64,000 bases of DNA from Candidatus Zhuqueibacterota bacterium. Its GTDB lineage: Bacteria; Zhuqueibacterota; Zhuqueibacteria; JANLFK01; Oleimicrobiaceae. The stretch lies in assembly GCA_024655945.1 (NCBI GenBank), contig JANLFK010000001.1, positions 588,116 through 652,115 on the forward strand, given 5' to 3'. The notes below the pieces were generated by a model. The model saw nothing but the letters and a program-made list of their open reading frames with translations. It was not told the origin of the DNA and did not search any database. The position numbers and the translations under genes are program-made. This document shows positions 4,209 to 55,571 of this stretch, one piece after another (the first letter of the stretch is position 1; the number at the start of each line of letters is the position of its first letter).

Positions 4209-4233
4209 GATTTCCGGCGGCCGGGGAACGACC

Positions 4234-5001
4234 ATGAGGTCTTCGCTTCTCCTCCTCACTGCACTTTGCCTGCTGCAGGCAACGCCGGCAGCCTGCCAAA
4301 AGGCCGGGATCTTGTTGCGCGGCCCCGTTGCCCACGGACAGGCCACGCCGCAGCAGGCCGATTCCATAGCCGCAGAGTTGCAGCAGTGCTTAGCGAGCAC
4401 AGGTGTGCTGGAACTGCTGCCGGCAACCACCCCGGGGCTCGAGGGGTCGGCACAGACTTCAGGGCACCAACCCCTCGCCGACGAGGTCATCGAGGGAAAG
4501 CTCACCAGGACAGGTGGCAGTTTTGCCCTGACCCTCACCTCCTCTCTGACTGCCACACGCGCGGTTGAAACATTCCATGGCGAAGCGGCGACTCTGGCTG
4601 AGCTGTGCACTCGGCTTGTGCCCACTTTTGCGCAGCAGGTGGCCGAACGCCACAAGAAGGGGCGGCTCGTCATCCGCATCGAACGTGGCTTCGACATCTA
4701 CCCCATGGATAAATACTTCGGCGTGTCTGACCCGTTCGTGGAGGTGTACGTCGACACGTTGTTGGTGGGCGTTACCCAGGTGCGCCAGGACGAAAAAGAC
4801 CCTGTCTGGGACGAGGAGTTCCTGCTCCCTGCGGTTGAGGCCAAGACGATAACGCTGTTCGTTTTCGACAAGGATGCTCTTGAGCACCGGGAGCTCATTG
4901 GCCGGGTCACTGTGCCCTGGGGCAGGGACGGCGTCTACTCCATCCGGCGCCCCCGTTACGTGCGAGATTTCGGGAAGGTTCAGGTCTCATTCGGTCGCTG
5001 A
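4234..5001 (+). CDS. secreted/lipoprotein-like protein with CsgG/LpoB-like N-domain and C-terminal C2-like domain
   Basis: Signal-like N-terminus MRSSLLLLTALCLLQATPAAC; C-terminal DPFVEVYVD...KDPVWDEEF...FVFDKDALEHRELIGRVTVPW resembles C2 domains; start overlaps the selB stop region (alternative start 4195). Confidence 0.6.
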   Translation: MRSSLLLLTALCLLQATPAACQKAGILLRGPVAHGQATPQQADSIAAELQQCLASTGVLELLPATTPGLEGSAQTSGHQPLADEVIEGKLTRTGGSFALTLTSSLTATRAVETFHGEAATLAELCTRLVPTFAQQVAERHKKGRLVIRIERGFDIYPMDKYFGVSDPFVEVYVDTLLVGVTQVRQDEKDPVWDEEFLLPAVEAKTITLFVFDKDALEHRELIGRVTVPWGRDGVYSIRRPRYVRDFGKVQVSFGR

Positions 5002-5061
5002 CTCCGCCCGATTTTTCCCTTGAGGCTTTGCCCCATTTTGCTTACATTTAACAGGTACCAC

Positions 5062-5157
5062 GGGAATGGATGGGTCCCTGGTGGGCCCCGCGGGCTTCAA
5101 ACCCGTTGTTCCGTGCTGAACAGTGCGGAAGGTGGGTTCGATTCCCACACATTCCCG
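5062..5157 (+). tRNA. selC: tRNA-Sec (selenocysteine tRNA), anticodon UCA
   Basis: 96 nt; 8-bp acceptor stem GGGAATGG/ACATTCCC (one G-A mismatch), 6-bp D stem GGGTCC/GGGCCC, anticodon loop CTTCAAA with UCA at 5097-5099, long variable arm 5109-5130, T arm GTGGG-TTCGATT-CCCAC, discriminator G; directly downstream of selB. Confidence 0.8.
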
Positions 5158-5166
5158 CAACAGGTC

Positions 5167-8400: not shown

Positions 8401-10587
8401 GACTGGTTCGAGGCGGACTCGGTGCTGCTCGTGCACGCCTCCCCTTCACCGGGATTTGCCTTTGGCGGCTGGGACGGGGATCTCAAGGGAAACGCCAACC
8501 CTGCTTCGCTTCTCATCGACCGGCCCAAAGAGGTCAGCGCGCTCTTTGTGCCCATGGGCATGGTGCGCGTCACCTCTGAACCAGAAAACCTGCTGGTCAT
8601 CGTGGATGGCACTTCGTGTCTGACGCCGCACGACTTTGTCTGGCAACCCGGTTCGGTGCACACCGTGGAGGCCGTGTCCCCCCAGCAATATGACCGCCTC
8701 AGGCACACCTTCCAGTTCTGGAACGACGGCGGCGCCCGGACCCACTCTGTGACGGTGACCGGACCGGCCGTGTTCGTCGCCCACTACCAGAAGGAGTTTT
8801 TCGTCGCCACGGCGTGTTCGCCTCCTGAGGGAGGGAGCATTGTGCCGCCGCCACCAGGCGCATGGGTTGCCGAGGGCGAAGCTCTTCTGCTCCAGGCCAC
8901 GGCAAATGGCGCCCAGGGTTACCTTTTCGCCGGCTGGAGCGGCGACCTTGTCGGGACAGACAACCCTGACACTCTGCTCGTCACCGAGCCGAAACAGGTC
9001 ACGGCGAACTTTGTGAAGATCGGGCACACCACGATCGCCACCGTACCCGAAGGCCTCTCTATAATCGTGGACGGCACCCGATACACTGCTCCGCAGGAGT
9101 TCGTCTGGGCCCCGGGGTCCAGTCACCTCATCGCCGTGGAGTCGCCACAGGCTGTGGCACCTGGCCTCCGCTACGTCTTCGAGGAGTGGAGCGACCACGG
9201 CGCTCAGAGCCACACCATCACTGCTTCAAGCGGGGCGTTCTACACCGCTTCCTTCCGGGCGGAGTACGCCGTATCCATCGCCGTCGAGCCGCAAGGAGCT
9301 GGCACGGTGGAGCTGTCACCCCCGGGTGGCTGGTACCAGGAAGGCGCTTCCGTAACCCTGACGGCGAGGCCCGACTCGGCGCAAGGCTATGAGTTCGCCC
9401 GGTGGAGCGGCCATTTGACCGGCAGCGACAACCCTGCGACCTTGGCGGTGGACTGCCCAAAGGCGGTGGTGGCGCACTTTGTGGCATCGGACGTGCTGCC
9501 GCCGCTTCTTGTCTATGTCTATCCCCCTGCCGGTGCCACCTTCGTGCCCACGAACACGGCAATTGATTTAGCTATCAGCGACAATCCTGGCGGACGCGGG
9601 CTCGACGCCAAGTCGGTCGTCGTCAGCGTGAACGGCACCACGGTCGTCAACGGCGGCTCGGTCCTGCCAGGACAGCAGGCCACCTTGCGCGTGCGCGACG
9701 GGCTGGCGACGTTGCATTTCGTGCCGGCTGTGCCACTTGCTCCCCAAAGGCCGGTTGAGGTCCGCGTGCAAGCGGCTGACCTGGCCTCGCGCCCGCACAC
9801 CCTCGACACCACCTTCACCTTCACCCTCGGGCCCTATCCGGTGCTCGTTACGGCCATGGAGACGATTGGCCCGCAGGGCGGCTTTGTAACCGACCCCGTG
9901 CACAAGCTGCAGATCAGCGTTCCTGCCGACGCCCTCTCCGACTCGACCACGATGACAATCGCCGTGGCTCCCAGCCCGCCACCGCTTCCGGACTCGCTTC
10001 TGGCTGTGGGTCCCACGTTCTACCTTGGACCGGACGGCCTGAGCTTCCTTGACTCGGTGACGGTGGCGATGCCCTACACCCAGGCCGACCTGGTGGCAAC
10101 AGGCGCCAATGAGCCATCGGCCATGCCGGTGTACCGCTTCGACACTGCACGTTCCCGGTGGGAGAGACTCCGAGTCGGCCGCGTCTACCGCAATTTCCTC
10201 CTGGTGCCGATGCGCAGCTTCTGCTACCTCCTCTTCTGCGGCCCGCGCGGCACGCAGGTGGTCACGGAACAGGCTCCGCTGCCGGAGGTCTTTGCGCTGC
10301 GCGGGGGCTTCCCCAACCCGTTCAACAGTGGTACCACCTTCGTTCTGGACCTCCCTCATCCCTGCGCGGTGAAATTGACCTTCTACGACGCCTCTGGCAG
10401 GAGAGTGGCGAGTGTCGATGCGGGGGTGCTGCCGGCGGGCAGCCATCGCCTGCCTTGGGAGGCCCGCGATGCCCGGGGAGACGCCTTGCCCACCGGCATC
10501 TACCTTTGCCGCGTGGAGGCAGGGGCGCCCGGTGCGTCTCGTTCCCCAGCCTTCATCGCCACCCGCAAAATCGCCTTAGTGCGCTGA
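5416..10587 (+). CDS. giant surface protein: cutinase/PETase-like alpha/beta hydrolase + Ig-like domain + about 10 InlB-B-like repeats + T9SS type-A C-terminal sorting domain
   Basis: Single 1723-aa ORF; N-terminal hydrophobic signal-like segment; nucleophile elbow GHSFGGG (Ser codon 5941-5943), Asp in GAELDAIN, His in GGNHMQF; repeats of type GGTVSP.PPG.W...VTL.A.P.PGY.F..WSG.....NP..L.M..P..V.A.F; C-terminus GGFPNPFNSGTTFVLDL...GIYLCRV. Confidence 0.85.
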   Translation: MDSESTWDGTRGPWRRRPRLVVPPLLGLVHFAAPLLFFLAAPTVLSADELQQYGVGRRDTTFYRAGRTLHTAVYYPATSSGSGAPLNTSGAPYPLLVFAIGKRMQVEHYLSYYEHLAASGYVVMAPQFPDVDSPSAYTWNEDLRDCITQALNARTVPGSVFYQAIDPGKIGLFGHSFGGGTVVGVAADDGRVRVTCAIAPNNPGNYSFNKMPNVHTPIHILGAELDAINSVEAIGRPLYERGNPDKALLVVKGGNHMQFSDYTGFDSVDTPATITRAQQLAITKEHLVNLFDAYLKGRSSARTQLYGTATLTKDSVFLWFETQAASASRLVYVSGNGQSAPPGQLTLLPVVFKVVDAQGNALPRHTVHFQITAGGGSLAGQTWRDLETDADGLVSIYPRLGPSEGVANNLIAVSAYKGTAHLTDSPQTVALSGTTQPLRRIVVHSDPATLTYQVDNVAYSSPQTFLWPTGSSHTVSAPSPQGEAAGTRFVFSSWSDGGALSHAYTVPARDDTLVVTFRTQYLLTLASAYGAPTGGGWYDAGSVASFRVDRHVPAGQARRMSLSGWVGTGSGSYSGPDSAATVTMHGPVTETAIWHTEFFLTTAQNPPAGGTVSPAPPGAWYDSSATVTLVATPAPGYAWGSWSGTINSTVNPLSFVMTGPTAATANFVRLALLTFRTEPPGLTVVVDTVSYVIPRTFSWLPGSVHTVSATSPQAGGAGVQYLFDSWSDGNPRTHNLVTPARDDTLVARFRTQFFLAVQSAHGSPRGQGWYDSGAQAAFSVTTPDSQAGTRHLFQQWTGDFTGTSPSGTVLMDRPKTVTALWKTQHLLTVLSPYCTASGAGWHDEGSQALFRVQPCVVYDSAGTRRVFAGWTGTGPGSYTGPDSTGTIVVQGPVTEVASWQTQYQLTVSSPYGSPVGAGWYPAGATAHFAVTSPEVEGLRRHVFRRWSGHFSGTQPAGTLVMRGPRTVTAEWGDQFYLAITAEPPEGGTVTPQPPGDWFEADSVLLVHASPSPGFAFGGWDGDLKGNANPASLLIDRPKEVSALFVPMGMVRVTSEPENLLVIVDGTSCLTPHDFVWQPGSVHTVEAVSPQQYDRLRHTFQFWNDGGARTHSVTVTGPAVFVAHYQKEFFVATACSPPEGGSIVPPPPGAWVAEGEALLLQATANGAQGYLFAGWSGDLVGTDNPDTLLVTEPKQVTANFVKIGHTTIATVPEGLSIIVDGTRYTAPQEFVWAPGSSHLIAVESPQAVAPGLRYVFEEWSDHGAQSHTITASSGAFYTASFRAEYAVSIAVEPQGAGTVELSPPGGWYQEGASVTLTARPDSAQGYEFARWSGHLTGSDNPATLAVDCPKAVVAHFVASDVLPPLLVYVYPPAGATFVPTNTAIDLAISDNPGGRGLDAKSVVVSVNGTTVVNGGSVLPGQQATLRVRDGLATLHFVPAVPLAPQRPVEVRVQAADLASRPHTLDTTFTFTLGPYPVLVTAMETIGPQGGFVTDPVHKLQISVPADALSDSTTMTIAVAPSPPPLPDSLLAVGPTFYLGPDGLSFLDSVTVAMPYTQADLVATGANEPSAMPVYRFDTARSRWERLRVGRVYRNFLLVPMRSFCYLLFCGPRGTQVVTEQAPLPEVFALRGGFPNPFNSGTTFVLDLPHPCAVKLTFYDASGRRVASVDAGVLPAGSHRLPWEARDARGDALPTGIYLCRVEAGAPGASRSPAFIATRKIALVR
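6700..9500 (+). repeat. tandem protein-domain repeats (InlB B-repeat-like, with Ig-like spacers) inside the giant CDS
   Basis: Recurring about 70-aa modules with conserved W/G/P positions seen at least 10 times in the translation; the DNA copies are divergent. Confidence 0.6.
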
Positions 10588-14189: not shown

Positions 14190-15563
14190 ATGGAAGAACC
14201 TATTCGTGTCCTGATCGCTGACGACAACCGCAACCTCCGCCTGCAGCTGCGCGATATCGCCGAGGAAGCGGGTTACCAGGTGGAAGAGGCAGCTGATGGC
14301 GAGGAGGCGATCGGCCGGCTGTCCGATGCCGATTACGACCTGCTGCTCCTCGACCTGCAGATGCCCAAGCTCTCCGGCCTGCAGGTGCTGGAACGTGCCA
14401 AAGGCCTGGCGCACCCCCCGGAAGTGTTGATCGTTACCGACTATGCCACCGTTGACGCTGCCGTAGAGGCGACGCGCTTAGGGGCATTCGACTTTATCGA
14501 GCGTGACGCCGTGGAACGGCGCCTGCCGGTGAGCATGCGCAATGCGCTGCAAAAGCGGCAGATAGAACCTGAGAACCAGCAGCTGCGCAGCCTTCGCGAG
14601 CCTGGCGAACTGCTGGGCACCAGCGCGGTGATGGCTGCCCTGCGCCAGCGCATTGCCCAGGTGGCCAAAAGCGACAGCACCGTGCTCATTCTCGGCGAGA
14701 GCGGCTCAGGCAAGGAGCTGGTGGCACGGGCCCTCCATCAACAGAGCCCGCGCGCCGCCAAGCCGTTTGTCGTGGTCAACTGCAGCGCCCTGAGCGACAC
14801 GCTGTTGGAGAGCGAGCTCTTCGGGCACGTGAAGGGGGCCTTCACGGGTGCCCACTCCGCCAAGAGGGGCATGTTCGAATGTGCCGATTCCGGCACTATC
14901 TTCCTCGATGAGATCGGCGACATGAGTCCGGCTGCCCAGGCAAAGGTCTTGCATGTGTTGGAGTACGGTGACGTGCACAAGGTGGGCTCCTTAGAGAGCA
15001 TTCGCGTGAACGTGCGCGTGCTGGCTGCAACTAATCGCCAGTTGGAACAGGATGTTGCCGAGGGTCGTTTTCGGCCCGACCTCTACCATAGGCTGAAGGT
15101 AGTCGTCTTGCACGTCCCGCCCTTGCGCGAGCACCCGGAGGATATCCCCCTCCTGGCCAACCACTTCTTGCGCACCTTTTGTGAGTTGAACCGCCGCCCA
15201 CCGGCGACTCTCGCCCCTGAAGCGTTGCAACTTCTCTTCCGCTACCATTGGCCCAACAATATCCGCGAGTTGCGCAACCTCATGGAGAGGGTGTGGATCC
15301 TGTGCAGCTCTGAGGTGGTAAACGCCTGGGAGTTAGAGCAGGTGTGGGAAAAAGAAGAGGGGCAGGTACCGGAGTCCCTGTTCCGTGGTCAGATTGTGCC
15401 GCTTGCGGAGGCCTGGCGCCAGTTTGAGCGGGCGTACATCAGGCGGGCCTTGGTCGCCTGCCGGGGCAACGTCAGCGAAACCGCGCGGCTTCTGCAGATC
15501 AACAGGAGTCATTTGCATGTGAAGATGAGGGAGTTGGGGGTGGGGGGCGGGCCAGCGTCGTAA
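14190..15563 (+). CDS. sigma-54-dependent response regulator (NtrC/Fis family: REC + AAA+ + HTH)
   Basis: REC domain LIADDN...LLLLDLQMP; Walker A GESGSGKE; GAFTGA-type sigma-54 interaction motif (GAFTGA); C-terminal HTH; ATG at 14190 with AGGAG upstream. Confidence 0.9.
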   Translation: MEEPIRVLIADDNRNLRLQLRDIAEEAGYQVEEAADGEEAIGRLSDADYDLLLLDLQMPKLSGLQVLERAKGLAHPPEVLIVTDYATVDAAVEATRLGAFDFIERDAVERRLPVSMRNALQKRQIEPENQQLRSLREPGELLGTSAVMAALRQRIAQVAKSDSTVLILGESGSGKELVARALHQQSPRAAKPFVVVNCSALSDTLLESELFGHVKGAFTGAHSAKRGMFECADSGTIFLDEIGDMSPAAQAKVLHVLEYGDVHKVGSLESIRVNVRVLAATNRQLEQDVAEGRFRPDLYHRLKVVVLHVPPLREHPEDIPLLANHFLRTFCELNRRPPATLAPEALQLLFRYHWPNNIRELRNLMERVWILCSSEVVNAWELEQVWEKEEGQVPESLFRGQIVPLAEAWRQFERAYIRRALVACRGNVSETARLLQINRSHLHVKMRELGVGGGPAS

Positions 15564-16797
15564 ATCGGGGTTGGTTTTGCGCTCTGCCTGCCGCAAAAGG
15601 ACAGGAACGTGAGGAAGTCTGTTGGAAAAGCCCAACACAGTGTGGGAAGAATCCTACAGTAGCGTGACGAACTTGCAGTAAGGTGTGGAAAGAGCCCTTT
15701 GCCTCCTTCTCGACTTCGAGGCCAGGAGGAACCAACGAGAGGGCACGAAGATTGCGTTATGCGATTATCGAGCGGCCTCGATGACCACTTCATCCCTTGT
15801 GAGAAGAGGATCCCAGGATCAGCAAAGGGGAACACTCAACGCTGCAGGAGTCGGCGGCGTTAAGCCAGCGGGTTCTCTTTTGGAGCGGGTTGAAGTGCAT
15901 TATTGGAGGGTCGGCGCCTGATGTTACCCCGAACGGGAAAGCGCTACATTGGGCGTTAGAGTTCGTGAACACTGTGTTCATCATGAGAGAAAGAGCCGCT
16001 CGCTGGCTAAGGTACTACGGTTAGCGGTGAAGCCGAGCTATGAACACGGGCGGGCTTTCTTTCCTCGCCCGATCGGACTCCCCGGGAAGGGGAGTGTTGT
16101 TGGACTGATGACAGTAGGGTTGCTGAGGCCACGGACTTTAGACACCCGCGATTGAGAGTAGGAGTACAGGCAAAGATACCTAACTTCGCAGCATGTTAAC
16201 CCTTGTTGGTGTCCTCTGAGATTCGGGTGGTGTGAAACATGGGGAGAGACACAGGCCCCGAAGGGCATCGGTACCGTACGGGAGCGCCTGCGCGACTGAT
16301 CAGTGAGGTCTTCAGATTCCTTAAACAAGTTGGAAGGAGTAGGAGTGAGACTCACGGCCATGCAGGCGCCGAAGCAGGCATGAGGACGTAACCCGGTTAC
16401 GTCGAGAGTTCCTCCCGGCGCTGCTCACTGGGTGGAACGGGGTGGGAAGTCAAGCCATTTAGAGGCCTCGCGACGATGGATGGACGGGCAGGTACGGCTT
16501 GCAGGTAGGTAGGGACCCACCAATGTGGAAAGAGCAGGAATGGGTGGCAACTCTATGTGGCCCCCCTGCGAGAGAAGGATGCTGTAGCTTCTTCACAGGG
16601 GACCGAGCAGTCAAGTTTGTCTATCAGAACGGGGGACATCTTGTGAAGGCTCCACCTCACGGGTGGAGTATACCCCAAAAGCATGGTGGGCCGCTATCCG
16701 CTGGAGCGGTGGATTGAAGCCTTTCGATGTCCTTACCCTGGAGTGATCCAGATGAGAAACGAGCGAAAATAGAATTGTCAGTCTCCATAACGCACTT
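15564..16797. other. ORF-free, purine-skewed 1.2-kb segment: candidate structured noncoding RNA or heavily decayed gene
   Basis: No ORF above about 110 aa in any frame; plus strand rich in G and A; several GNRA-like loops and clean hairpins (e.g. CTCCCC-GGGAA-GGGGAG at 16078-16094); 12-nt exact repeat TGTGGAAAGAGC at 15684-15695 and 16524-16535; composition differs from flanking genes. Confidence 0.25.
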
Positions 16798-18749
16798 GTG
16801 CGAATTGAGAGTACGAGAAGCCCCCGACGTGCCAAACCTTCGGGCTTGGCCTGGGATGGAAGTTACTTGTGGTTGTGCGACATCAGCGAGAACACCGTGT
16901 GGAAGCTTAGCCGAACCGGCCAGGTGGCGGCCAGAATGTTTGTTCCCGGTACTTATCACACTGGTCTGGAATGGGACGGCCATTCTGCGTGGCTGGTGGA
17001 CGGCGAGGCTGAACTCATCTACGAACTGGACGGCTCTGGCAACACTCGGAACTTCTATCTGCCGCCGGGGACCTTTCCCAGGGATATTGCCTGGGACGGC
17101 AGTGATCTTTGGATTGCAGATGCTGACAACGACAGAATCTACAAGTTGAGAGGTCCCATCATGGGGCCTGAGCCGAGGGCTTCGTTCACGGTAACCCCAA
17201 CGTCCGGTTTCCTGGAGACCCTTTTCCTGGTTGACGCTTCCAGTTCACAAGACCAAGTTACTCCCCTCGCGGACCTCGAGGTTCGGTGGGATTGGGAAAA
17301 CGATGGGGCGTACGACACCGAATACTCCAAGGTCAAGACTGCAAACCATCAGTACGCCTCACCGGGAACCAAGACAATTAGGCTTGAGGTCAAGGATACG
17401 GACGGGTATACCGGCACGACAACAAGAAGCGTCTCAGTAAGCGCGAGGGCCCCTCAGGCTTTCAGCCTAGTTTCTCCGCGATCAGGTGATACCGTTAGAA
17501 CGTACCTGCCCTCATTCAAGTGGCGGACCGCGCGAGACGCTGACCCAGGAGATACGGTGCGCTATTTTGTTCAGTATTCGAAAAGCTCCTATTTCTCCAT
17601 CTTCGATACACTCGCAGCAGGCACCGACACCCCTGCTGCCGTACGTGATTCTTTGCAGCAATTACAGAGGTACTATTGGCGGGTGGAAGCGGTGGATCGC
17701 TGGGGAGCAAAGACCCTGAGCTCTCAAAGTTGGAATTTCCTGGTCGCAGACCTCACGCCCCCCTCTTTCACAATCGGTCTCCTGCAGAATCCCATAATCA
17801 CAGAGGATCTCGATCTGTACGCCATCCCCAACGAGACACTGGATCAGCGCGGGGTTCAGTGTACCGCCAACGGGATCCCTGTTCCTATGTCGGAGCTCGA
17901 CGCTGCGCGTCGAATCTATGTTGGTGATTACCAGCTCTCGGGGGAGCGGAAGACTGGTGGTCATCATGAGAGGCAAAGATGCGATATGGGGAAATGAAGG
18001 TGCCGACAGCCTGTCCATCTCGGTGCAGCTAGTCAAAACAGTACAGGGGGGGGACGATCGCTAGTCTCGATGGGGCCTTGCATGCACAGTTCCCCGCTGG
18101 TTGCCTTCCTTACGACGCTTACGTCTTGGTTCTACAAGCGAACCAGGAACCAGGACGGAGGGAAGGCCTCTGTAGAAGGACAATGGAAAGTGACACAGTC
18201 ATCGCCATTGGGACAAGCTACGGAATTGAGCCCGCAGGACTCCGGTTATCCGACTCTGTGCTGTTGGAGGCCAGTTACTCGGAGAGGGCCTTGGCAGACC
18301 TAGATGAGGAGAGACTAGAGCTTGCGATCAGAGAAAGTGACGGCTGGAGATCTCTCGGCGGTGTAGTGGACAAGAAGACTGACAGAGTGACCTTGCTGGT
18401 CGACCAGCTGGGAGAATACCGTCTGCAGTGGAATCAGAAACGTCGGACGTCAGGGAGTTTTCCTTCGCACTTGGTCCTTTTGCCAAACTACCCCAATCCG
18501 TTCAATCCGACCACTACCCTACATTATGGACTGCCTGAGCGATTTTCGGGCTGGGTGGAGCTGGGTATCTACGACGCCGCTGGGCGCGAAGTGTGTTGCC
18601 TGGTGGATGAGCCTCAGAACCCCGGGTATTATTCTGTCGTATGGGACGGGAGGGATAGCTCTGGTCGGCAGGTGCCAAGCGGAGTGTACTGTTGCCGTCT
18701 GCGGGCAAACAGGCTTTCCATTGCAAGAAAGATGATCTTCCTACGCTAA
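16798..18749 (+). pseudogene. T9SS-type surface protein (WDG beta-propeller blades + PKD domain + type-A C-terminal sorting domain), frame-disrupted and lacking an N-terminal signal
   Basis: Frame 1 16798-17997 (GLAWDGSYLWLCD, GLEWDGHSAWLVD, DIAWDGSDLWIAD; PKD-like WDWENDGAYD), switch to frame 2 near 17940-17960, then to frame 0 at the G8 run 18046-18053; frame 0 continues to the sorting domain LLPNYPNPFNPTTTLHY...GVYCCRL ending at 18749. Confidence 0.55.
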
Positions 18750-18778
18750 GTTGCTCAACACAAATGGAGGAATAGCCA

Positions 18779-19459
18779 ATGACAGCCTTCATGCTCAAAC
18801 AGTCGCCTGGACGTGCGGTGTTGATCTGCCTTGTCTGCGTCGTGGCCCTCGCTACCTGCAGCAAAGAGACACCCACGGCACCAAAGAAGGGTCCCGTTAC
18901 ATGGATTGCTGAGGGCTGGAGATACTTCGAGGCGAAGGACTTCGCCGAGGCAGTTAATTGCTTCAGCACTGCACTCAACATGAATCCAAGCGACAGCATC
19001 GCTGCAATCGCGCATTGCGGGTTGGGCTGGAGTCAGGCAAGGCAGCGCGCATACGAGGTAGCTCACAACAATTTCACTTTCTCGGTCCAGAAGGACTCCA
19101 CCACGCCCGGCCCATATGTTGCCGACTCTTACGCCGGCAGGGCTGCAACCTTCTTTCGAATGAACCTCTACAGTGAGGCAATTTCTGACGTGAAGAAGGC
19201 CCTGAGCAGTACCGGCACCTATGAATTCGTTCACGACCGGACAGTGAGATTCACTGACCTTCACTTCTTGATGGCCGAAGCCTACTACCACACTCGTCAG
19301 TACCAAATGGCACAGGAAAAAGTAGACTTCCTTCGTGCCTTGTTTGCTCTTCCTCCGATCAACTGGACTGTAGTCCCCTATATGGTTGATGGTTTGGGGT
19401 ATGGAACTTACCAGGAAGCTCTTCTCAAAGCGATCGAGGGACTTCGGAGCAGAGTGTAG
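18779..19459 (+). CDS. TPR-like repeat lipoprotein
   Basis: ATG at 18779 with GGAGGA upstream; signal peptide with lipobox-like LATCS; helical repeat content; lower GC than flanking genes; TAG stop. Confidence 0.7.
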   Translation: MTAFMLKQSPGRAVLICLVCVVALATCSKETPTAPKKGPVTWIAEGWRYFEAKDFAEAVNCFSTALNMNPSDSIAAIAHCGLGWSQARQRAYEVAHNNFTFSVQKDSTTPGPYVADSYAGRAATFFRMNLYSEAISDVKKALSSTGTYEFVHDRTVRFTDLHFLMAEAYYHTRQYQMAQEKVDFLRALFALPPINWTVVPYMVDGLGYGTYQEALLKAIEGLRSRV

Positions 19460-19843
19460 GTTGTCCTTCCGTAAGTCCAGAAGGGTAAACCCAAACAAGA
19501 CAAGGGGGGAAGGTGAAACGGGACTGGAGGACACAATCGCGGCGTCCGCGGTCACAGTGTGTCCGCGACAAACGGTTCCCCCGCACCTTTTCGATCAACC
19601 TTTGTCGAGCGTCTCGAGTGCGAGATTTGGTCGAGGGAACTCCGTCGGGAAAGGGACCACGTCTGATCGTGACTCAAAGGCCTTGGAATTGAGGCGAATC
19701 CGACCACGAACTAGGTCAACGATCGGAGATGGAGGAGCCCACAAGTGAGAGAACACCAAACTGCGCGTTGTCCGCGGGAATCGGTTTCCACGGTGGGCGC
19801 CCAGAGGACGAAGTCGTCACAACGTAACGTAAAGAGGCAAGCG

Positions 19844-21383
19844 ATGAGAGAACCCAGTGGTCCATTCCGTCTTTTGATCATTTTGCTGGTATTTGTTGGC
19901 ATTGGCGCCCACGCCGGAGAAATCCGCCCCGTGAGCCCGGCCACCGTCCTGGGGCAGGTGGGGGTCGAGTTCGACGTGTATGTGCGTGTGGATCAGGTAA
20001 GCAATCTCTTCGGGGTCAGTTTCGTTTTGACCTTGGACAACGGCTATCTGGAGGCGATTTCCGAAAACCCCGAGTCCTTCATGGGCAGTGACGTGGTATT
20101 TTTGGGCCAGCACAATAATGCCGCCGGCACAGTGGCCATCGGGATTTCCCGCAAAGCTGGGCAGGGAGGCGTCAGCGGCACAGGCAATGTCGCACGGGTG
20201 CGAGAGTTGTGCAAGGGGCCACGCAGGACAGAGTCCTCCGGTTCGGGCTCGCCTCCGTGGAAGCCATCGACCCCTTGGGCGCGTCGATTGTGCTCGCTCC
20301 AGGTGAAGCCACGACTACGCTGTCCAGGTTGGTCACGGTGTGGCCGGGCGATGCTGATGATAACGGCACTGTGAACATCTTCGACATTAACCCGATCGTT
20401 GCCAATCACTGGGGCCGGACGGGGCCGCAGCGGCCCAATGCCTCTGTAAACTGGACGGGCCAGGTATGCCCACCATGGACACCGCCTGACGCAACCTACC
20501 CGACACTAACGGCGACGGCCTGGTGAGCATTTTCGACATTAATGCCGTACCGGTCAACTTCGGCAAGACTCACCCCGGAACCGCCGGGGCCCCACTCCCG
20601 ACACCGGTGGAACCCCAGGTCGTTGCGCTTGGCAAGGAAAGCGGGGTCACCTCACCGCCCATCGCGGCAAAGGGCCCGCAGCAGGTAGACAAGAACCAGG
20701 AATTCTGGGTAGACATCGAGGTTGGAGCCTTAGGCAATCCCGTCACCAACCTCAAGGTGGTCTCTTTCGAACTGACCTACACGAACACTGCCATAGTTGA
20801 CTACCTCAGTTACGAGGTGGGACCTTTCTTGACGGGCGCGATAGCAACCGTGATTCCGGATGACCCCAACGGGAAGGTAAGCGCGTCGGTCTATCGAACC
20901 ACTGGCAGCAACTCCGGCTACGGGGTAGTCTTGCGGCTGAAGTTTCGCACAAGCGCACAGGCCGCAGCGGGGCAGACGGTAAGCTTTGCCTTCGCCCAGG
21001 TGCTAGCCAACAGGGAGGACGGTAGCGTTCAGCCCTTGTCGCCCATTGGTCAGGTGGTCACCATTCAACCTGGCAGCGGCATACGCGCTGACGACTTCAC
21101 GCCCACAGAGTTCGAGCTGGTGCAGAACTACCCCAACCCCTTCAATCCTGGGACGGTCATAGAGTACCGTCTCCCGCAGGCCAGCAGGGTGACGCTGCAA
21201 GTGTACAACTTGGCTGGAGTAAAGGTGGCCTCGCTGCGGGACGGGATGGAGAGTGCGGGTCGTCATTCGGTGGTCTGGGATGGCCGCGACGAAATGGGCA
21301 GGCCTGTTGCAGCGGGGGTATACATGTGCAGGCTGGTGGCCGGAACCTACGACAAGACCATCAGAATGCTGCTGCTCAGGTAG
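19844..21383 (+). pseudogene. cohesin-like / dockerin-like / cohesin-like protein with T9SS type-A sorting domain, carrying two frame disruptions
   Basis: ATG at 19844 (AAAGAGG upstream), signal MREPSGPFRLLIILLVFVGIGAHA; cohesin-like VSFVLTLDNGYLEAI; dockerin repeats GDADDNGTVNIFDINPIV (frame 1) and DTNGDGLVSIFDINAVPV (frame 0); second cohesin-like VVSFELTYTNTAIVDYL; C-terminus LVQNYPNPFNPGTVIEY...GVYMCRL. Reading requires frame 2 -> 1 -> 0. Confidence 0.55.
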
Positions 21384-21420: not shown

Positions 21421-21460
21421 CGAGCGCCCTGGGGCAAATGCCTCAGGGCGCTCTGCCTTG
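21421..21460. terminator. bidirectional hairpin between convergent genes
   Basis: GAGCGCCCTG...CAGGGCGCTC 10-bp stem (with extra inner pairs) followed by T-containing tails on both strands. Confidence 0.4.
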
Positions 21461-21682: not shown

Positions 21683-23850
21683 TCACCACCCCACCTCCGC
21701 CACCGCCCGCCAGTGCCGGCCGGGCATGGGGTAGCCGGCGGCCACCTGGTACTGCACGTCGAAGAGGTTGTCCATTCCTGCCCGGAGGTGCCAGGTCACG
21801 CCCCAGAAGGGCACGCGCACGCCCACATTGGCATCGGCCACCGTGTGCGCAGGAAGGCGCCGCGTGTTGGCTTCGTCCGTGTAGCGCGACCCCACATAGG
21901 AGGCAGTGACATGGCCGTAGAACGGGCGACCCTGAAAACCAGCCCGCAACGAGGCCATGTGTTCCGGCCGGTAGATGAGCCGCTTGCCCTGAAGACCAGG
22001 TATGCCACCAGTATCTACCGCCCGCAGATGGCTGTAGTTCGCCTCAAGGATGAGGCGCTGCGCAAACCCCTCCCACTTGAGCCGCAGCTCCTGCCCCGTA
22101 ATCTCCGCCCTGCTCACATTGGCAGGCGACCACTTGTAACTCAGCGGGTCCATCCCCCAGACGATGAGGTCGCGGGCCCAGCGTCGGTACAAGCTGAGCT
22201 CGCCGTGCACGCGTCCGGCAGCCGGCACCCTCACGCTCAGCCCACCATCAATTTCCGTGGTCCGTTCCGGCTTCAGGTTGGGATTGCCCACGGTAAAGGC
22301 GTCCTCCGGCCAGTAGAGGTCGTTGAATGTCGGTGCGCGGAAGGAGCCACCCACATTGCCGCGTATCGCTACGTGGCTGTGCCGCACCCTGCTCAAAATT
22401 ATCCCCACCTTCGGACTGGTGACGAAACCAACCCCCTCGTAGTGGTCGATGCGCGCCGTCGGCAGAAGGTTGGCCTGCCACTCGGGGCGACCGAGCAAGC
22501 CTTTCCAGGCGGCATCGGCCTGGGCAAAGGCGCCGAAAGACTCCCGCGCGTGGGTACCCAACGAGGTACCTCGCGAGCGCTCGTTCAGATAGCTGGCCCC
22601 CAGGGACAGCACCTTGTCCTGTGCCAAGGGCAGGTCACCCTGCAAAGAGGCACCGGCGCTGACGCCTTTGTTGTCGGCATTCGACGGCCAGAAGGGATTG
22701 GGGTCAACATAGCGGGTGGCGAGCTCGTGCCGGAACCCTGTCGCCTGTACGTGCACCTTGCCGCCGAGGCTCGTCTCCACACCCAGCTGCACGCGGCGGC
22801 TGTCGTCGGTCTGCTTTGCCTCGGGACTCGGAAAGGCCAAGGATCCAGGCGCACCCCGCTCGGCATGGGACCACTCGCCGGAAAGGGTGAGGCGTGTGAG
22901 TGGAGAAGACTGCCAGCTCACCTTGCCGAAGAGTTCATCCATGGCAAACGAATTGTTGATGCGCCTGCTCTCCCTTTCCCTGTCCGTGGCTGGGTCCTTG
23001 GTGCGGTAAATAAAGTCGCCGTCGCTGCGGGCGCGGCTTGCGGCCACCAGCAGGCCGACATCGCCCTGCTGGTGACTTGCGCCAAAGTGCGCCGAGCGGC
23101 TGCCCCAAGAGCCCATGCCCGTGGCAAGCGACAGCTGAGGCCTCACTCCTCCCCGCGGCGCGCGTGTGATGATGTTCACCACGCCGGCGGCGGCATCCGC
23201 CCCATAGAGCGAGGAGAGCCCGCTACGCACAAATTCAATGCGCTCCACCGCAGTGAGCGGCAGCAGGCCGAGATCGTACCCCCCGGCTAACGGCGAATTG
23301 AGGCGCGCGCCATCCCAGAGGATGAGCACCTGTTCCGCCGAGGAGCCGCGCACCGACAGCGACTTCATGGCCGCATCCGAGCCATAGCTTTTCACAAAGG
23401 CCCCGGCCACAGGCCGCAAGGCATCAGCCACGGTGCTGCCGTTGACCATCTCTATGTCCGCGGCGGAGACCACCTCCGCCGACACGGGCAACTCCCAGCT
23501 CAGCGATCTGCCACGCTTGCCGGTGACCATCACTTCCTCAAGTTCAATGATGGTCGGCACCAGGCGCACGGACACCTGTTGGGCGCCGCGATCCGCAACG
23601 CGGAGCGTGAGCAGCTGCGGCGCATAGCCCATGTAGGAAACGCGAAGCTGGTACGTTCCTGCCCGCAGCTTGGGAAGCACGAAACGGCCCATTTCGTCGG
23701 TGGCGGCGCCCTGCCCGCCTGGCATAACACTGACGTTGGCGCCGGCGAGCGGTTTGCCGGTGGTGTGGTCCACCACCAGGCCGGTCACTTGCGCAAGGGC
23801 ACTCGAACAAAGGACCGCCACACAGAGGAGCGTCAGGAAAAGCGTCTTTT
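21683..23850 (-). CDS. btuB: TonB-dependent receptor (CarboxypepD_reg-like + plug + beta-barrel), probably cobalamin receptor BtuB-like
   Basis: ATG at 23850 with GGGAGG upstream; signal MKTQKTLFLTLLCVAVLCSSALAQ; plug motifs, C-terminal aromatic AVAEVGW; lies downstream of a cobalamin riboswitch. The btuB assignment is by context. Confidence 0.8.
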
Positions 23851-24421
23851 GCGTCTTCATCTTCGCCTCCCGTGGAACCCGGTTCACTGCTGTCTCTCTC
23901 CTACCTAACACTCCGATGGCCGCCGGCACCAGCAGCGCAAAGATTGCGGTGTTGACGGCGGCGTGGGTCAGGTAGAACACCGCCCCATAGGCGTAGGCTC
24001 CGAGCAAAGCCGGGAGGGTGAGCCGGGTCATCACGAGAAAGCCCACCGTGGTGAGAAAGTCGAAGGTCACCGTGAGGATGAAGCCGCTGGCCGCTAAAAC
24101 CAGCACTTGTGGCCAGTGGATTTTGTGCCGCCGCGCCCTCCTGCCGATCAGCCCCCCCACAAACCCCGCCAGGCCCATCCCCAAGACCTGGCTGACCAGC
24201 AGAGTGACAGAGGAGATGCCGTAGGGGTTGATGGCCGCGTAGAGAAGCTCGCCGACCATGGCCGTGGCCAGTCCTCGCCCGGCACCAAGGAAGGCGCCGG
24301 CGACAAAGGCAGTGGCGGTCACCAGCTCCACGTTGGGCACGCTGCTGAGCAGGTAGCCCAAGGCGACCATCAACCCGGCGAACATGGCCATGCTGGCCAA
24401 AGAAACGGTGCCCGGTCTCAC
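23851..24421 (-). CDS. ECF-transporter S-component-like small membrane protein (possibly cobalamin-specific); 3' end undefined
   Basis: Hydrophobic multi-TM translation MAMFAGLMVALGYLL...LLVPAAIGVLGRR; GTG at 24421 with GAGGAGGAA upstream (alternative ATG 24391); no stop codon before the btuB start, same frame. Confidence 0.55.
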
Positions 24422-24478
24422 GACCTCATTCCTCCTCTGCCATGCGCGAGCACTCCACCACGCGGCGGGCGGCGCCAA

Positions 24479-24514
24479 CAAAAAAACCCTGGCCTCCTCA
24501 AACAGACCAGGGTT
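24479..24514 (-). terminator. intrinsic terminator / riboswitch expression-platform hairpin
   Basis: Minus strand AACCCTGG-14 nt loop-CCAGGGTT followed by TTTTTTT; sits between the riboswitch aptamer and the RBS. Confidence 0.5.
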
Positions 24515-24569
24515 CGCACGTCGCGCACGCTACGCACCGACACCTCACCCGCGGAGGCTCACACGGTGA

Positions 24570-24760
24570 TACCGACTCCGGCAGGTTTCCTGGCTCTCCC
24601 GACCCTGGTCGCCTTCCCATCCAAGCTGCGGACAGTGGCACCGTTGACCAGGGCACCGGCGCATCGACTCATGCGCCCGGGATCACAGTAGCGGGGCTGC
24701 GACGGACTTGCACCGTCTTCCCTTTTCCTCCCCGGCGGGGAGCACCGGAATCTACGCCCA
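24570..24760 (-). promoter_or_regulatory. cobalamin (AdoCbl) riboswitch
   Basis: Minus strand reads AAGGGAAGACGGTGCAAGTCCGTCGCAGCCCCGCTACTGTGA ... GCCACTG ... GGGAAGGC ... AGCCAGGAAACCTGCC, matching the conserved core and B12 box of the cobalamin riboswitch family. Confidence 0.8.
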
Positions 24761-24783
24761 TATCGCCAAAGAGCGACGGTGCA

Positions 24784-26412: not shown

Positions 26413-26460
26413 GGCGAGCGCGCACGCAGGGTCGCGTCGCTCCTGGCCTTGGGCCTGGGC

Positions 26461-27536
26461 TCAGGGATGCTGCGCTAAGAACTCGGTCACTGCCGTGGCA
26501 AACTCATCTGGCGCATCGGCAAAGAGAAAGTGGCCGGCCTGCGGCATGGTGCGCGGCTCCGCATGAGGGAGCAGTTGCGCGTACGTGGCGGTGGCCGCCT
26601 CCGGCTAAATGTCCATCCCTCCGTGGAGAATGAGCGCCGGTGCGGTGACCCGCTGCAAAGCCGCGCGGTAGTCGTGCTTCTTGCCCATGCTGAGATACTT
26701 CGCCTGCACCATCCAACCGCCGTTGCCGTGGAAGCGAAGCGTGCTGGGCACCGGCATGCCCTTCGCCTTTGCGGCAGCAAGGTAGAACCTGGTGAAACGG
26801 GAGTTCAGGCCGATCATCTCCCCCTCACTGCGCGAGAAGAGGTGCTTGAAATCGAGATACTCCTTGAGGAAAGTAGCATAGTCGCTCTTCAGCTCTGCTG
26901 GCAGGAGCGCGCCCACCTCGTCCAGGAGGTTGCCCTCGCCGGGAAACACGAGGAGCTGCGCCGGTGCAATCAACACCAGGGCACGCACATGTTCGGGAAA
27001 CTCCGCCGCGTACAGGGTGGCGAGAAAGGCGCCGATGGAGTGTCCGACCAGGATCAACCTATCCACGCCCAGGATGCGACGGATGCGTTCGACGTCAGCC
27101 ACCTGCGCACCTATGCCGAGGGCCCTATCGAGGTTGAGCATGTTGCGATAGAGGCTCTTGTCGGATAGCCGATCCACTGGCCGCGTTGAGTTGCCGCAGC
27201 CGCGCTGGTGGTAATAGATAACGCGATACTGCGCCGCCAGCTGATGCAGACCAGGTGGTGGGGGAGGTAGGGATAGCCAGGGCCACCGTGCAACACCAGA
27301 ACCTGCGAGCCAGACCCTTCTTCGAAGAAGAAGAGCTTCACATTCGGCTCAACCAGCCAGAGGTTTGCGCCTGCCGTTTGCGGCGGCGGAGCCAGTGGCG
27401 CCCGCAGGTTCTTTGCCTGCCGCACCATTCCTGGTCGGTACAAAGGCTTTCCGGCGGAAACGACAAAGAGCACCCCAGCAACCACCACTACCACAAGCAC
27501 CCCCGCCAGCAGCACCAGCATTACTCTCTTGGCCAC
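26461..27536 (-). pseudogene. membrane-anchored alpha/beta hydrolase (proline iminopeptidase-like) with one frameshift and one in-frame TAG
   Basis: N-terminal part VLVLHGGPG (track ORF 27111..27536); body LAAQYRVIYYHQRGCGNS...LVGHSIGAFLA...ILHGGMDI in another frame (switch at a C5 run near 27260-27264); TAG at 26607..26605; conserved C-terminus PEAATATYAQLLPHAEPRTMPQAGHFLFADAPDEFATAVTEFLAQHP continues in frame to TGA at 26461. Confidence 0.6.
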
Positions 27537-27548
27537 GGTTTCTCCTCC

Positions 27549-46414: not shown

Positions 46415-46454
46415 GGTCACTTGCTCCTTATTCCTCCGTGAACTTGTTATTTCT

Positions 46455-52997: not shown

Positions 52998-53049
52998 AGC
53001 GCTTCCCTCATTGCTTACTGGCACGTTCCCTGGGGCGCCAGCCCATGCC

Positions 53050-54825: not shown

Positions 54826-54827
54826 GG

Positions 54828-55556: not shown

Positions 55557-55571
55557 GTCTCGCCTCCCTTC

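What the first reader, a model, noticed from the sequence alone, without database searches (positions are those of the whole stretch)
19844..21383. Cohesin-like and dockerin-like modules in a T9SS-sorted protein
The translation contains two cohesin-like beta-sandwich segments flanking a two-repeat dockerin-like calcium-binding motif (GDADDNGTVNIFDINPIV and DTNGDGLVSIFDINAVPV), then an NYPNPFNP sorting domain. Cohesin-dockerin pairing is the assembly principle of cellulosomes; linking it to T9SS surface anchoring suggests a surface protein-protein docking scaffold. The gene needs two frame corrections to read through.
Basis: inference. Interest (0 to 1): 0.45.

Follow-up and report, generated by a model that had tools for sequence, protein, structure and literature searches.

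The report
Broken cohesin-dockerin-cohesin surface protein gene
This is an interrupted copy of a very common but unstudied kind of bacterial surface protein that carries two cohesin modules, one dockerin module and a type IX secretion tail; the domain calls are right, but the gene is an ordinary family member and is probably dead here.

Summary
Window 19844-21383 (+) reads, over three frames, as signal peptide, cohesin, dockerin-like module, cohesin, T9SS type A tail. Pfam Cohesin passes its cut-off for the first module. The second module aligns to the first by profile comparison (99.9%) and its AlphaFold model matches solved cohesins. TIGR04183 passes. Pfam Dockerin_1 fails its cut-off for this copy (13.7-19.4 bits against 22.9), although both calcium loops are canonical and all 40 homologous modules hit that model.

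The gene is not unusual. The same cassette ends hundreds of proteins from KSB1, Calditrichota, Ignavibacteriota and related phyla, usually behind a variable passenger domain. Of 233 relatives, 178 have exactly this order. A T9SS-anchored cohesin scaffold has already been proposed for Cloacimonadota.

Two features are particular to this copy. It is the only hybrid of the two cohesin subtypes among the 178. It also carries two frame breaks, which recur in an identical JGI contig. The window's six gene lesions fall in only three genes, which favours real pseudogenes over random assembly errors, though homopolymer miscalls are not excluded. No partner cohesin or dockerin gene lies in the window, and cohesin-dockerin binding is inferred, not shown.

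The parts
19844..19912 (+). Start codon and Sec-type signal peptide (MREPSGPFRLLIILLVFVGIGAHA, then GE)
   Evidence: Read directly from the sequence: basic n-region, hydrophobic core, AHA before the likely cleavage site. No signal-peptide predictor was run.
19919..20337 (+). Cohesin module 1, subtype A (GISRKAGQGGVSG motif), interrupted by frame break 1
   Evidence: Pfam PF00963 covers aa 31-128 at 34.7 bits, cut-off 24.1. The subtype-A profile A3 hits the solved cohesins 4UMS, 2XDH, 1TYJ and 2Y3N_A at E 3e-4 to 5e-3.
20203..20206 (+). Frame break 1 (frame mod3=2 to mod3=1)
   Evidence: Six-frame reading and tblastn with intact homologues. It lies in the strand NVARVR/VVQGATQ, with 4 nt missing relative to homologues (or 1 nt plus one codon). 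It is not on a homopolymer.
20338..20573 (+). Dockerin-like module. The VWPGD junction is followed by Ca loop and helix 1 (20347-20400), a conserved Trp-rich insert (20401-20501) and Ca loop and helix 2 (20502-20555), ending in NFGKTH.
   Evidence: Pfam Dockerin_1 is below cut-off for this copy (13.7 and 19.4 bits against 22.9). All 40 of 40 homologous modules hit Dockerin_1. The A4 profile's best PDB match is dockerin 2Y3N_B at E 4.7e-6. The AlphaFold model of homologue P0006 (70% identical in this module) has pLDDT 88-97 here, with helices directly after both loops.
20499..20501 (+). Frame break 2 (frame mod3=1 to mod3=0) at a CCC run
   Evidence: Adding one C restores ...ATYPDTNGDGLVSIFDIN.
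20574..20642 (+). Pro/Ala-rich flexible linker
   Evidence: pLDDT is below 50 for aa 1-39 of the 286-aa ORF model. The equivalent linker in the P0006 model (aa 405-418) is also low-confidence.
20643..21077 (+). Cohesin module 2, subtype B (YTNTAIVDY ... GKVSASVY motifs)
   Evidence: No Pfam hit on its own. hhalign of subtype B against subtype A gives 99.9%, E 1.3e-34. The AlphaFold model has pLDDT above 90, and Foldseek finds 2VO8 (TM 0.85), 2XDH (0.83), 3UL4_A (0.82), 5NRM_A (0.81) and 1AOH (0.80).
21126..21383 (+). T9SS type A C-terminal sorting domain (NYPNPFNP ... MLLLR) and stop codon
   Evidence: NCBIfam TIGR04183 scores 31.2 bits, cut-off 23. Pfam FlgD_ig scores 40.8 bits, cut-off 27. 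The model shows a beta-sandwich with pLDDT above 90.
21422..21453 (.). Perfect 10-bp inverted repeat (GAGCGCCCTG ... CAGGGCGCTC) between the convergent gene ends; a possible terminator hairpin without a T tract
   Evidence: Read from the sequence and folded with ViennaRNA. The consensus terminator scan did not call it.

Best explanation
The region is an interrupted, probably recently inactivated, copy of a widespread family of type IX secretion cargo proteins from FCB-group candidate phyla. The organism is related to KSB1 and Zhuqueibacterota.

The family is defined by a fixed C-terminal cassette: cohesin, dockerin-like module, cohesin, type A sorting domain. In most members a variable passenger domain sits in front of it. 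This copy has no passenger, only a signal peptide and the cassette.

In intact members the likely sequence of events is as follows.
1. Sec export through the signal peptide.
2. Passage across the outer membrane by the T9SS, guided by the C-terminal domain.
3. Removal of that domain and attachment to the cell surface.
4. Calcium-dependent pairing of the dockerin-like module with cohesins of the matching subtype, on the same or on neighbouring cassette proteins, so that differently equipped surface proteins are held together.

The module identities, their order and the family distribution are shown here. Secretion, anchoring and cohesin-dockerin binding are inferred.

In the sequence as it stands no such protein can be made. 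The first fragment has the signal peptide but ends inside cohesin 1. The 286-aa fragment with cohesin 2 and the sorting tail has no signal peptide.
For: Module identity rests, as detailed under parts.

Family:
- 642 homologues at E<=1e-3, many annotated with PF00963, PF00404 and PF18962/PF13860.
- A cassette profile finds 74,792 cluster representatives at E<=1e-30. The best 150 (all E<=1e-148) match almost always at their C-terminus.
- Local HMMs find exactly Coh-Doc-Coh-CTD in 178 of 233 relatives. The CTD ends within 4 residues of the C-terminus, and the passenger is 0-1975 aa (median 392).

Subtype matching: 152 proteins are A/A (137 with a Q-type dockerin, 15 untyped) and 25 are B/B (23 with an IF-type dockerin, 2 untyped). 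The two dockerin repeats always carry the same helix residues within a subtype.

Interruption:
- There are two frame breaks.
- The same 286-aa ORF is on record under two NCBI accessions and in a JGI contig that is 100% identical over 20,861 bp.
- The window's six lesions (five frameshifts and one in-frame TAG) sit two each in three accessory genes. Random placement does that in 0.5% of trials.
- The neighbouring T9SS cargo gene also lacks its 5' third.

Recency: this copy keeps all 19 columns that are invariant among the 60 aligned sequences.

Organism: the RlmN encoded in the window is 95% identical to a 'Calditrichaeota' MAG, 76% to Ca. Oleimicrobiaceae (Zhuqueibacterota) and about 58% to KSB1. 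One NCBI record calls the source KSB1.
Against: - No binding experiment or complex model supports cohesin-dockerin pairing.
- The dockerin fails the Pfam cut-off in this copy, and its repeats start 51 residues apart instead of about 33.
- No T9SS machinery gene and no partner dockerin or cohesin gene is in the window.
- Subtype matching rests on only two subfamilies, so it may reflect common descent rather than co-adaptation.
- Three of the five frameshifts lie on G5, G8 and G5 runs, and the contigs are very long (632-762 kb). That would also fit homopolymer miscalls in a long-read assembly.
- The identical JGI contig may come from the same reads, so it is not an independent confirmation.
- I did not prove that every other gene in the window is free of lesions.
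Confidence: 0.55

Rival explanations
1. The gene is intact in the organism, and both frame breaks are consensus errors of the assembly (missed bases), as are the other frameshifts in the window. The protein would then be a functional 513-aa surface protein.
For: - Three of the five frameshifts in the window lie exactly on G5, G8 and G5 homopolymers, and break 2 is in a CCC run.
- The contigs are 632-762 kb long, which suggests long reads.
- All family-invariant residues are kept in all three frames.
- The alignment to homologues is colinear across both junctions.
Against: - The lesions cluster two per gene in three accessory genes, while about 50 kb of other coding sequence, including ORFs of 1723, 981 and 932 codons, stays open. 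Random placement gives this pattern in 0.5% of trials.
- One lesion is an in-frame TAG, not an indel.
- The upstream gene lacks its 5' part.
- Break 1 is not on a homopolymer and lacks 4 nt relative to homologues.
- The breaks recur in the records of three assemblies.
Confidence: 0.35
2. The cohesin-like and dockerin-like modules do not pair with each other. They would form a calcium-stiffened stalk of beta-sandwiches that merely spaces passenger domains away from the outer membrane, as Ig-like domains do in front of the sorting tail of Bacteroidota T9SS cargo.
For: - The cassette always sits directly in front of the CTD and behind very different passengers.
- In the model of homologue P0006, cohesin 1 runs into the dockerin without any low-confidence linker, across the invariant VWPGD junction, as expected for a rigid unit.
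- The dockerin differs from canonical ones by a conserved insert of about 20 residues.
Against: - A plain spacer would not need both repeats to keep the same helix residues, nor the dockerin subtype to match both cohesin subtypes.
- Non-cellulosomal cohesin-dockerin pairs such as that of Archaeoglobus fulgidus do bind (PMC12484212, PMC9705933), and its cohesin 2XDH is among the best structural matches.
- Passenger-less members like this one would have nothing to space.
Confidence: 0.25
3. The protein is a scaffoldin of a true cellulosome-like polysaccharide-degrading complex. It would recruit dockerin-tagged glycoside hydrolases to the cell surface.
For: - It has cohesin and dockerin homology and a surface-anchoring tail.
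- A comparable proposal exists for Ca. Stygibacter (PMC8542988).
- Some family members carry BACON, CBM_4_9 or F5/8 type C domains as passengers.
Against: - This protein has no carbohydrate-binding module and only two cohesins.
- No dockerin-bearing enzyme or glycoside hydrolase cluster is in the window. The neighbours are a TPR lipoprotein, a B12-riboswitch-controlled TonB receptor and a PKD/T9SS pseudogene.
- Passengers in the family are very diverse (Kelch, VWA, beta-helix, CARDB, PKD) rather than mainly glycoside hydrolases.
Confidence: 0.1
4. The three frames are joined by programmed ribosomal frameshifting.
For: Only that the reading frame continues colinearly across both junctions.
Against: - All homologues retrieved are encoded in a single frame.
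- Two separate +1 events would be needed.
- No conserved slippery site was seen at either junction.
- The same kind of break occurs in unrelated neighbouring genes.
Confidence: 0.01

Closest known systems
Clostridial cellulosomal type I cohesin-dockerin pairs (e.g. C. thermocellum CipA cohesin 1AOH, Xyn10B dockerin complex 1OHZ, OlpA complex 3UL4)
   Same: - Module 2 has the same cohesin beta-sandwich fold (TM 0.80-0.82).
- The dockerin has two calcium loops with D/N at positions 1, 3, 5, 9 and 12, each followed by a helix.
- The two repeats are near-duplicates of each other. From background knowledge, that is the sequence signature of the dual binding mode.
   Different: - Cohesins and dockerin sit on one polypeptide in a fixed Coh-Doc-Coh order.
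- The dockerin repeats start 51 rather than about 33 residues apart, because of a conserved Trp-rich insert.
- Anchoring is by a T9SS tail in a diderm, not by SLH or sortase in a Gram-positive.
- There is no CBM, and sequence identity to solved cohesins is only 11-18%.
Non-cellulosomal cohesin and dockerin modules (Peer et al. 2009, cited in PMC8542988; Archaeoglobus fulgidus cohesin 2XDH; Clostridium perfringens GH84C/GH33 cohesins 2W1N, 2JH2, 2VO8)
   Same: - The modules occur outside cellulosomes, in organisms that are not known to be cellulolytic.
- These are among the best structural matches (2VO8 TM 0.85, 2XDH 0.83), and 2XDH is also a sequence-profile match.
- The A. fulgidus pair binds and is used as a tool (PMC12484212).
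   Different: The phyla differ, the T9SS tail is present here, the Coh-Doc-Coh order is stereotyped, and the dockerin carries the insert.
Scaffoldin-like protein of Ca. [quoted passage not shown]
   Same: It has cohesins on a protein with a T9SS-type C-terminal domain, proposed to attach a cohesin-dockerin complex to the cell's own surface in an FCB-related candidate phylum.
   Different: That protein has 3,755 aa, many tandem cohesins and CBM2/CBM3 modules, and the dockerins are on separate enzymes. Here a 513-aa protein has two cohesins flanking its own dockerin, with no CBM.
T9SS type A cargo of Bacteroidota (TIGR04183 tail; e.g. gingipains with an Ig-like domain before the CTD)
   Same: It has an N-terminal signal peptide, a C-terminal sorting domain of about 80 aa with a beta-sandwich fold, and beta-sandwich modules directly before the tail.
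   Different: The tail is the NYPNPFNP / FlgD_ig-like flavour typical of KSB1, Calditrichota, Zixibacteria and Latescibacterota. It scores below the Pfam Por_Secre_tail cut-off (16.3 against 27).

Membership tests
Cohesin (Pfam PF00963) | Sequence match to the family model above the curated cut-off | tested here: met
   Module 1 scores 34.7 bits against a cut-off of 24.1. Module 2 alone has no Pfam hit. It is tied to module 1 by hhalign at 99.9%, E 1.3e-34, and 2 of the 11 subtype-B modules hit PF00963 (best 4e-7).
Cohesin (Pfam PF00963) | Nine-stranded flattened beta-sandwich (jelly-roll) fold | tested here: met
   This was tested for module 2 only. The AlphaFold model has pLDDT above 90. Foldseek matches cohesins with TM 0.80-0.85 and rmsd 2.0-2.9 A. 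Module 1 of this window was not modelled, because it is split by the frame break.
Cohesin (Pfam PF00963) | Binds a dockerin | not testable with these tools
   No complex prediction or experiment was available.
Dockerin type I (Pfam PF00404) | Sequence match to the family model above the curated cut-off | tested here: not met
   This copy scores 13.7 bits in the whole protein and 19.4 bits for the isolated module, against a cut-off of 22.9. All 40 of 40 homologous modules hit the model at E<=1, best 7e-10.
Dockerin type I (Pfam PF00404) | Two EF-hand-like calcium loops with D/N/S at positions 1, 3, 5, 9 and 12, each followed by a helix | tested here: met
   Loop 1 is D-A-D-D-N-G-T-V-N-I-F-D and loop 2 is D-T-N-G-D-G-L-V-S-I-F-D, read from the sequence. 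In the model of homologue P0006, helices 340-347 and 391-397 follow the loops. This is inferred for the window copy, which is 70% identical in this module.
Dockerin type I (Pfam PF00404) | Two repeats of about 22 residues with a short linker, giving a module of about 60-70 residues | tested here: not met
   In this copy the repeat starts are 51 residues apart, and 50-52 in most relatives. The canonical spacing of about 33 is from background knowledge. A conserved insert (W..TGP.R.NAS..W.GQ...PW.P..ATY) lengthens the module to about 80 residues.
Dockerin type I (Pfam PF00404) | Calcium-dependent binding to a cohesin | not testable with these tools
   No experiment was possible. The only indirect evidence is that the dockerin subtype matches the cohesin subtypes.
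T9SS type A sorting domain (NCBIfam TIGR04183) | Match above the curated cut-off, at the extreme C-terminus | tested here: met
   It scores 31.2 bits against a cut-off of 23, over aa 430-509 of 513. Pfam Por_Secre_tail scores only 16.3 against 27, and FlgD_ig scores 40.8 against 27.
T9SS type A sorting domain (NCBIfam TIGR04183) | N-terminal Sec signal peptide on the same polypeptide | tested here: inconclusive
   A signal peptide is present at 19844-19912 by reading. In the sequence as assembled it is separated from the tail by two frame breaks.
T9SS type A sorting domain (NCBIfam TIGR04183) | T9SS machinery encoded in the genome | not tested
   No core T9SS gene lies in the 64 kb. Three or four other genes in the window end in the same kind of tail. 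The rest of the genome could not be fetched.
Cellulosome (scaffoldin plus dockerin-tagged glycoside hydrolases) | Carbohydrate-binding module on the scaffoldin, and dockerin-bearing enzymes as partners | tested here: not met
   The protein has no CBM. The dockerin-loop pattern occurs nowhere else in the window. A genome-wide partner search was not possible.
Coh-Doc-Coh-CTD cassette family (unnamed; defined here) | Module order cohesin, dockerin with insert, cohesin, terminal CTD, with the invariant VWPGD junction | tested here: met
   Local HMMs give Coh-doc-Coh-ctd for the corrected protein and for 177 relatives. V166, W167, P168, G169 and D170 are invariant in 60 sequences.
Coh-Doc-Coh-CTD cassette family (unnamed; defined here) | Both cohesins of the same subtype, matched to the dockerin subtype | tested here: not met
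   This copy is A / IF-type dockerin / B. It is the only hybrid among 178: 152 are A/A and 25 are B/B.

The most novel reading that the evidence does not exclude
The Coh-Doc-Coh-CTD cassette may be a self-scaffolding assembly device. Each T9SS cargo protein would carry two receptor sites (the cohesins) and one ligand (a symmetric dockerin with a family-specific insert). Proteins with the same cassette subtype would then chain or branch into a multi-protein coat on the outer membrane without any dedicated scaffoldin. This would be a cellulosome-like principle used by many FCB candidate phyla for very diverse passenger domains. On this reading the window's hybrid A/IF/B copy is a recombinant whose parts no longer match, which could explain why it is decaying.
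Probability: 0.2. Interest if true: 0.6.

Novelty: new member of a known kind. Interest (0 to 1): 0.28.

Why it matters
For this window it matters little. The gene is one interrupted copy of a family that public annotation already labels as cohesin, dockerin or T9SS sorting-domain proteins.

The family itself is worth a look. A stereotyped cohesin-dockerin-cohesin cassette sits in front of the T9SS tail of very many proteins in poorly known phyla, including KSB1, Calditrichota, Ignavibacteriota and Latescibacterota. It comes in two strictly matched subtypes, and nobody appears to have tested what it binds. If the modules pair, this would be a general way for these bacteria to build surface protein assemblies, and a source of new orthogonal cohesin-dockerin pairs for protein engineering.

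Tried and rejected
I therefore modelled the 286-aa window ORF and the homologue P0006 instead.
- Foldseek of the full-length P0006 model against PDB returned only generic multi-domain beta-sandwich chains. It said nothing about the dockerin or about domain packing.
- The look-up of contigs encoding P0001 found nothing.
- Peer et al. 2009 is not held in the library.
- The Zhuqueibacterota paper mentions none of cohesin, dockerin or T9SS.
- The promoter and terminator scan around the gene was at chance level.
- The 1.2-kb ORF-less stretch 15564-16790 gave no Rfam, Pfam or tblastn signal.
- I first argued that frameshifts were confined to the low-GC stretch 15.4-21.4 kb. I dropped that argument when the alpha/beta hydrolase at 26.4-27.5 kb also proved broken.
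- Programmed frameshifting was considered and rejected, because homologues are single-frame.
- Misassembly between two paralogues as the source of the A/B hybrid was considered. The A-to-IF switch at about 20338 does not coincide with either frame break, and an identical sequence is present in a second contig record. It remains possible.
Full report
**1. What is in the sequence**

The gene at 19844-21383 (+) reads in three frames. They are mod3=2 from ATG 19844 to about 20203, mod3=1 from about 20206 to 20499, and mod3=0 from 20502 to the stop at 21381-21383. tblastn with three intact homologues gives colinear matches in exactly these frames, skipping one homologue residue at each junction. 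Junction 2 is one base missing from a CCC run. Junction 1, in the strand NVARVR/VVQGATQ, lacks 4 nt relative to homologues (or 1 nt plus one codon) and is not on a homopolymer.

A dockerin-loop pattern matches nowhere else in the six-frame translation of the window. The frame-corrected product has 513 aa and starts with a Sec-type signal peptide.

**2. Module identities**

- *Cohesin 1.* Pfam Cohesin matches aa 31-128 at 34.7 bits, cut-off 24.1.
- *Sorting tail.* NCBIfam TIGR04183 (T9SS type A sorting domain) matches aa 430-509 at 31.2 bits, cut-off 23. Pfam FlgD_ig also passes, while Por_Secre_tail does not.
- *Dockerin-like module.* Dockerin_1 is below its cut-off: 13.7 bits in the whole protein and 19.4 bits for the module alone, against 22.9. 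Both loops nevertheless have the canonical D/N/S pattern at positions 1, 3, 5, 9 and 12. All 40 homologous modules hit Dockerin_1 (best 7e-10). The family profile's best solved match is the dockerin 2Y3N_B (E 4.7e-6). In the AlphaFold model of homologue P0006, which is 70% identical in this module, the region is confident (pLDDT 88-97) and has a helix directly after each loop. The module differs from canonical dockerins in spacing: the repeats start 51 residues apart instead of about 33, because of a conserved Trp-rich insert.
- *Cohesin 2.* The second cohesin-like segment has no Pfam hit. It aligns over its full length to the first type by profile-profile comparison (99.9%, E 1.3e-34). Its AlphaFold model (pLDDT above 90) matches solved cohesins at TM 0.80-0.85, including the non-cellulosomal cohesins of Archaeoglobus fulgidus and Clostridium perfringens.

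**3. The family**

The corrected protein has 642 homologues at E<=1e-3. Many cover 90-98% of it and carry precomputed Cohesin, Dockerin_1 and T9SS-tail hits. Their source names include Calditrichaeota, KSB1, Ignavibacteria and Melioribacteraceae. A profile of the cassette finds 74,792 representatives at E<=1e-30 among 1.84 billion. The best 150, all at E<=1e-148, are matched almost always at their C-terminus, in proteins of 417-2990 aa.

I built local HMMs of the four modules and ran them on 233 relatives.
- 178 of the 233 have exactly cohesin-dockerin-cohesin-CTD.
- The CTD ends within 4 residues of the C-terminus.
- The part in front of the cassette is 0-1975 aa long, median 392. It carries domains such as BACON, CARDB, Kelch, VWA, beta-helix and PKD.

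The cassette is therefore a generic C-terminal unit of T9SS cargo in these phyla. The window protein is a passenger-less member.

**4. Subtypes**

There are two cohesin subtypes: A, with the GISRKAGQGGVSG motif, and B, with the YTNTAI...GKVSASVY motifs. There are also two dockerin subtypes, with helix residues NQADVLPIGL (Q type) or NIFDIN (IF type). Within a subtype both repeats carry the same helix residues.

Among the 178 cassette proteins, 152 are A/A (137 with a Q-type dockerin, 15 untyped) and 25 are B/B (23 with an IF-type dockerin, 2 untyped). One is a hybrid, A / IF-type dockerin / B, and it is the window protein. The matching is what specific cohesin-dockerin recognition within or between cassettes would predict. 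With only two subfamilies it may also simply reflect descent.

In the P0006 model, cohesin 1 runs into the dockerin without a floppy linker, across the invariant VWPGD junction. A low-confidence linker separates the dockerin from cohesin 2. No information on domain packing could be obtained.

**5. Are the frame breaks real?**

The window holds at least three interrupted genes.
- The target has two frameshifts.
- The neighbouring PKD/T9SS cargo gene at 16789-18746 has two frameshifts, on G5 and G8 runs, and also lacks the N-terminal part found in homologues.
- An alpha/beta hydrolase at about 26420-27540 (-) has a frameshift near a G5 run and an in-frame TAG. The stitched protein matches Abhydrolase_1 over 3-245 of 245 positions.

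All other genes examined are open and match their families over full length. They include SelB, RlmN, MoxR, a UvrD-like helicase-nuclease, RmuC, a sigma factor, a 1723-aa ORF and a TonB receptor. Six lesions falling in at most three of about 38 genes happens in 0.5% of random placements. That pattern fits pseudogenes that keep accumulating damage better than it fits independent consensus errors.

The same 286-aa ORF is on record under two NCBI accessions. A JGI contig of 631,779 bp is 100% identical to window 10523-31383, with the same broken genes. Whether these records rest on independent reads is unknown.

Against this, homopolymer positions and very long contigs would also fit long-read miscalls. 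I put real lesions at about 0.6 and artefact at about 0.35. If the lesions are real, inactivation is recent, because every family-invariant residue is still in place.

**6. Context**

The gene lies at the edge of a GC dip, 0.54-0.57 at 15.4-19.9 kb against 0.62-0.66 around it. Upstream are the broken PKD/T9SS gene and a TPR lipoprotein. The gene is convergent with a TonB-dependent receptor that sits under a cobalamin riboswitch. No T9SS machinery, glycoside hydrolase cluster or further cohesin or dockerin gene is in the window.

The organism belongs to the FCB group near KSB1 and Zhuqueibacterota.

**7. Comparison with what is known**

Cohesin and dockerin modules outside cellulosomes are long known (Peer et al. 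2009, cited in PMC8542988), and the A. fulgidus pair binds (PMC12484212). A cohesin scaffoldin attached through a T9SS C-terminal domain was proposed for Ca. Stygibacter (PMC8542988). Public annotation already names relatives as cohesin, dockerin or T9SS sorting-domain proteins.

I found no paper on the specific Coh-Doc-Coh-CTD cassette in the searches run.

**8. Verdict**

The gene is a new member of a known kind, chimeric and probably dead in this genome. Interest is low to moderate. The family-level question of what the cassette binds is the part worth following.

Noticed in passing
window 16789-18746 (+), with 15564-16790 upstream: The neighbouring T9SS cargo gene (PKD domain plus NYPNPFNP tail) is split over frames mod3=1, 2 and 0. 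The junctions lie on a G5 run (17940-17944) and a G8 run (about 18046-18053). It also lacks the first ~125-330 residues found in homologues P0241 and P0242. The 1.2 kb in front of it has no ORF above 108 aa and no Pfam, Rfam or tblastn signal, and it shows a strong positive GC skew.
   Followed up: yes
window about 26420-27540 (-): An alpha/beta hydrolase gene (HGGPG ... GHSIG ... GH motifs, with a membrane anchor) carries a frameshift near a G5 run (about 27257) and an in-frame TAG at 26605-26607. The stitched protein matches Abhydrolase_1 over 3-245 of 245 positions at 114.6 bits, against 61.5 bits for the ORF alone.
   Followed up: yes
window 21683-24764 (-): A cobalamin riboswitch (24563-24764, 99 bits) precedes one 932-codon ORF. 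In that ORF an ECF-transporter-like membrane part (aa 28-186) and a complete CarboxypepD_reg + Plug + TonB-dependent barrel receptor, which has its own signal peptide starting MKTQKTLFL, are in the same frame with no stop between them. In the identical JGI contig the receptor is called alone (902 aa). This could be a fusion, read-through or a lost stop codon.
   Followed up: partly
window 15400-19900: GC content drops to 0.54-0.57 here, against 0.62-0.66 in the flanks. Codon-position GC periodicity is weak over the PKD/T9SS pseudogene, the TPR lipoprotein gene and the start of the target gene. This may be foreign or decaying DNA.
   Followed up: partly
window 2064-5158 (+): A SelB gene (2064-4208) is followed by a 268-aa ORF with a C2 domain (Pfam C2, E 3.5e-13, unusual in bacteria) and then tRNA-Sec (5062-5158, anticodon TCA).
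   Followed up: no
window 5416-10587 (+): A 1723-aa ORF combines a PETase-like / dienelactone-hydrolase-like esterase domain, four Flg_new_2 (InlB B-repeat-like) domains, a ZU5 domain and a FlgD_ig-type C-terminal tail. It is a large putative T9SS-sorted esterase.
   Followed up: no
window 43925-46420 (-): An 831-aa protein has a NAGPA phosphodiester glycosidase domain, a Big_2 domain and a NYPNPFNP sorting tail. It is another T9SS cargo gene, and this one is intact.
   Followed up: no
window 51939-56549 (-) and 60707-62764 (-): There is a gldA/gldF/gldG-like ABC transporter set with a DUF4340 gene. Further on are two adjacent CsgG-like lipoprotein genes, one of them fused to TPR repeats.
   Followed up: no
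family proteins P0021, P0063, P0065, P0067 (relatives, not in the window): In a subset of relatives the first calcium loop of the dockerin is interrupted by an extra segment (DTNDPFDPLNVVNQAD), so loop 1 may not bind calcium in the usual way. Two other relatives have the doubled order Coh-Doc-Coh-Doc-Coh-CTD.
   Followed up: no
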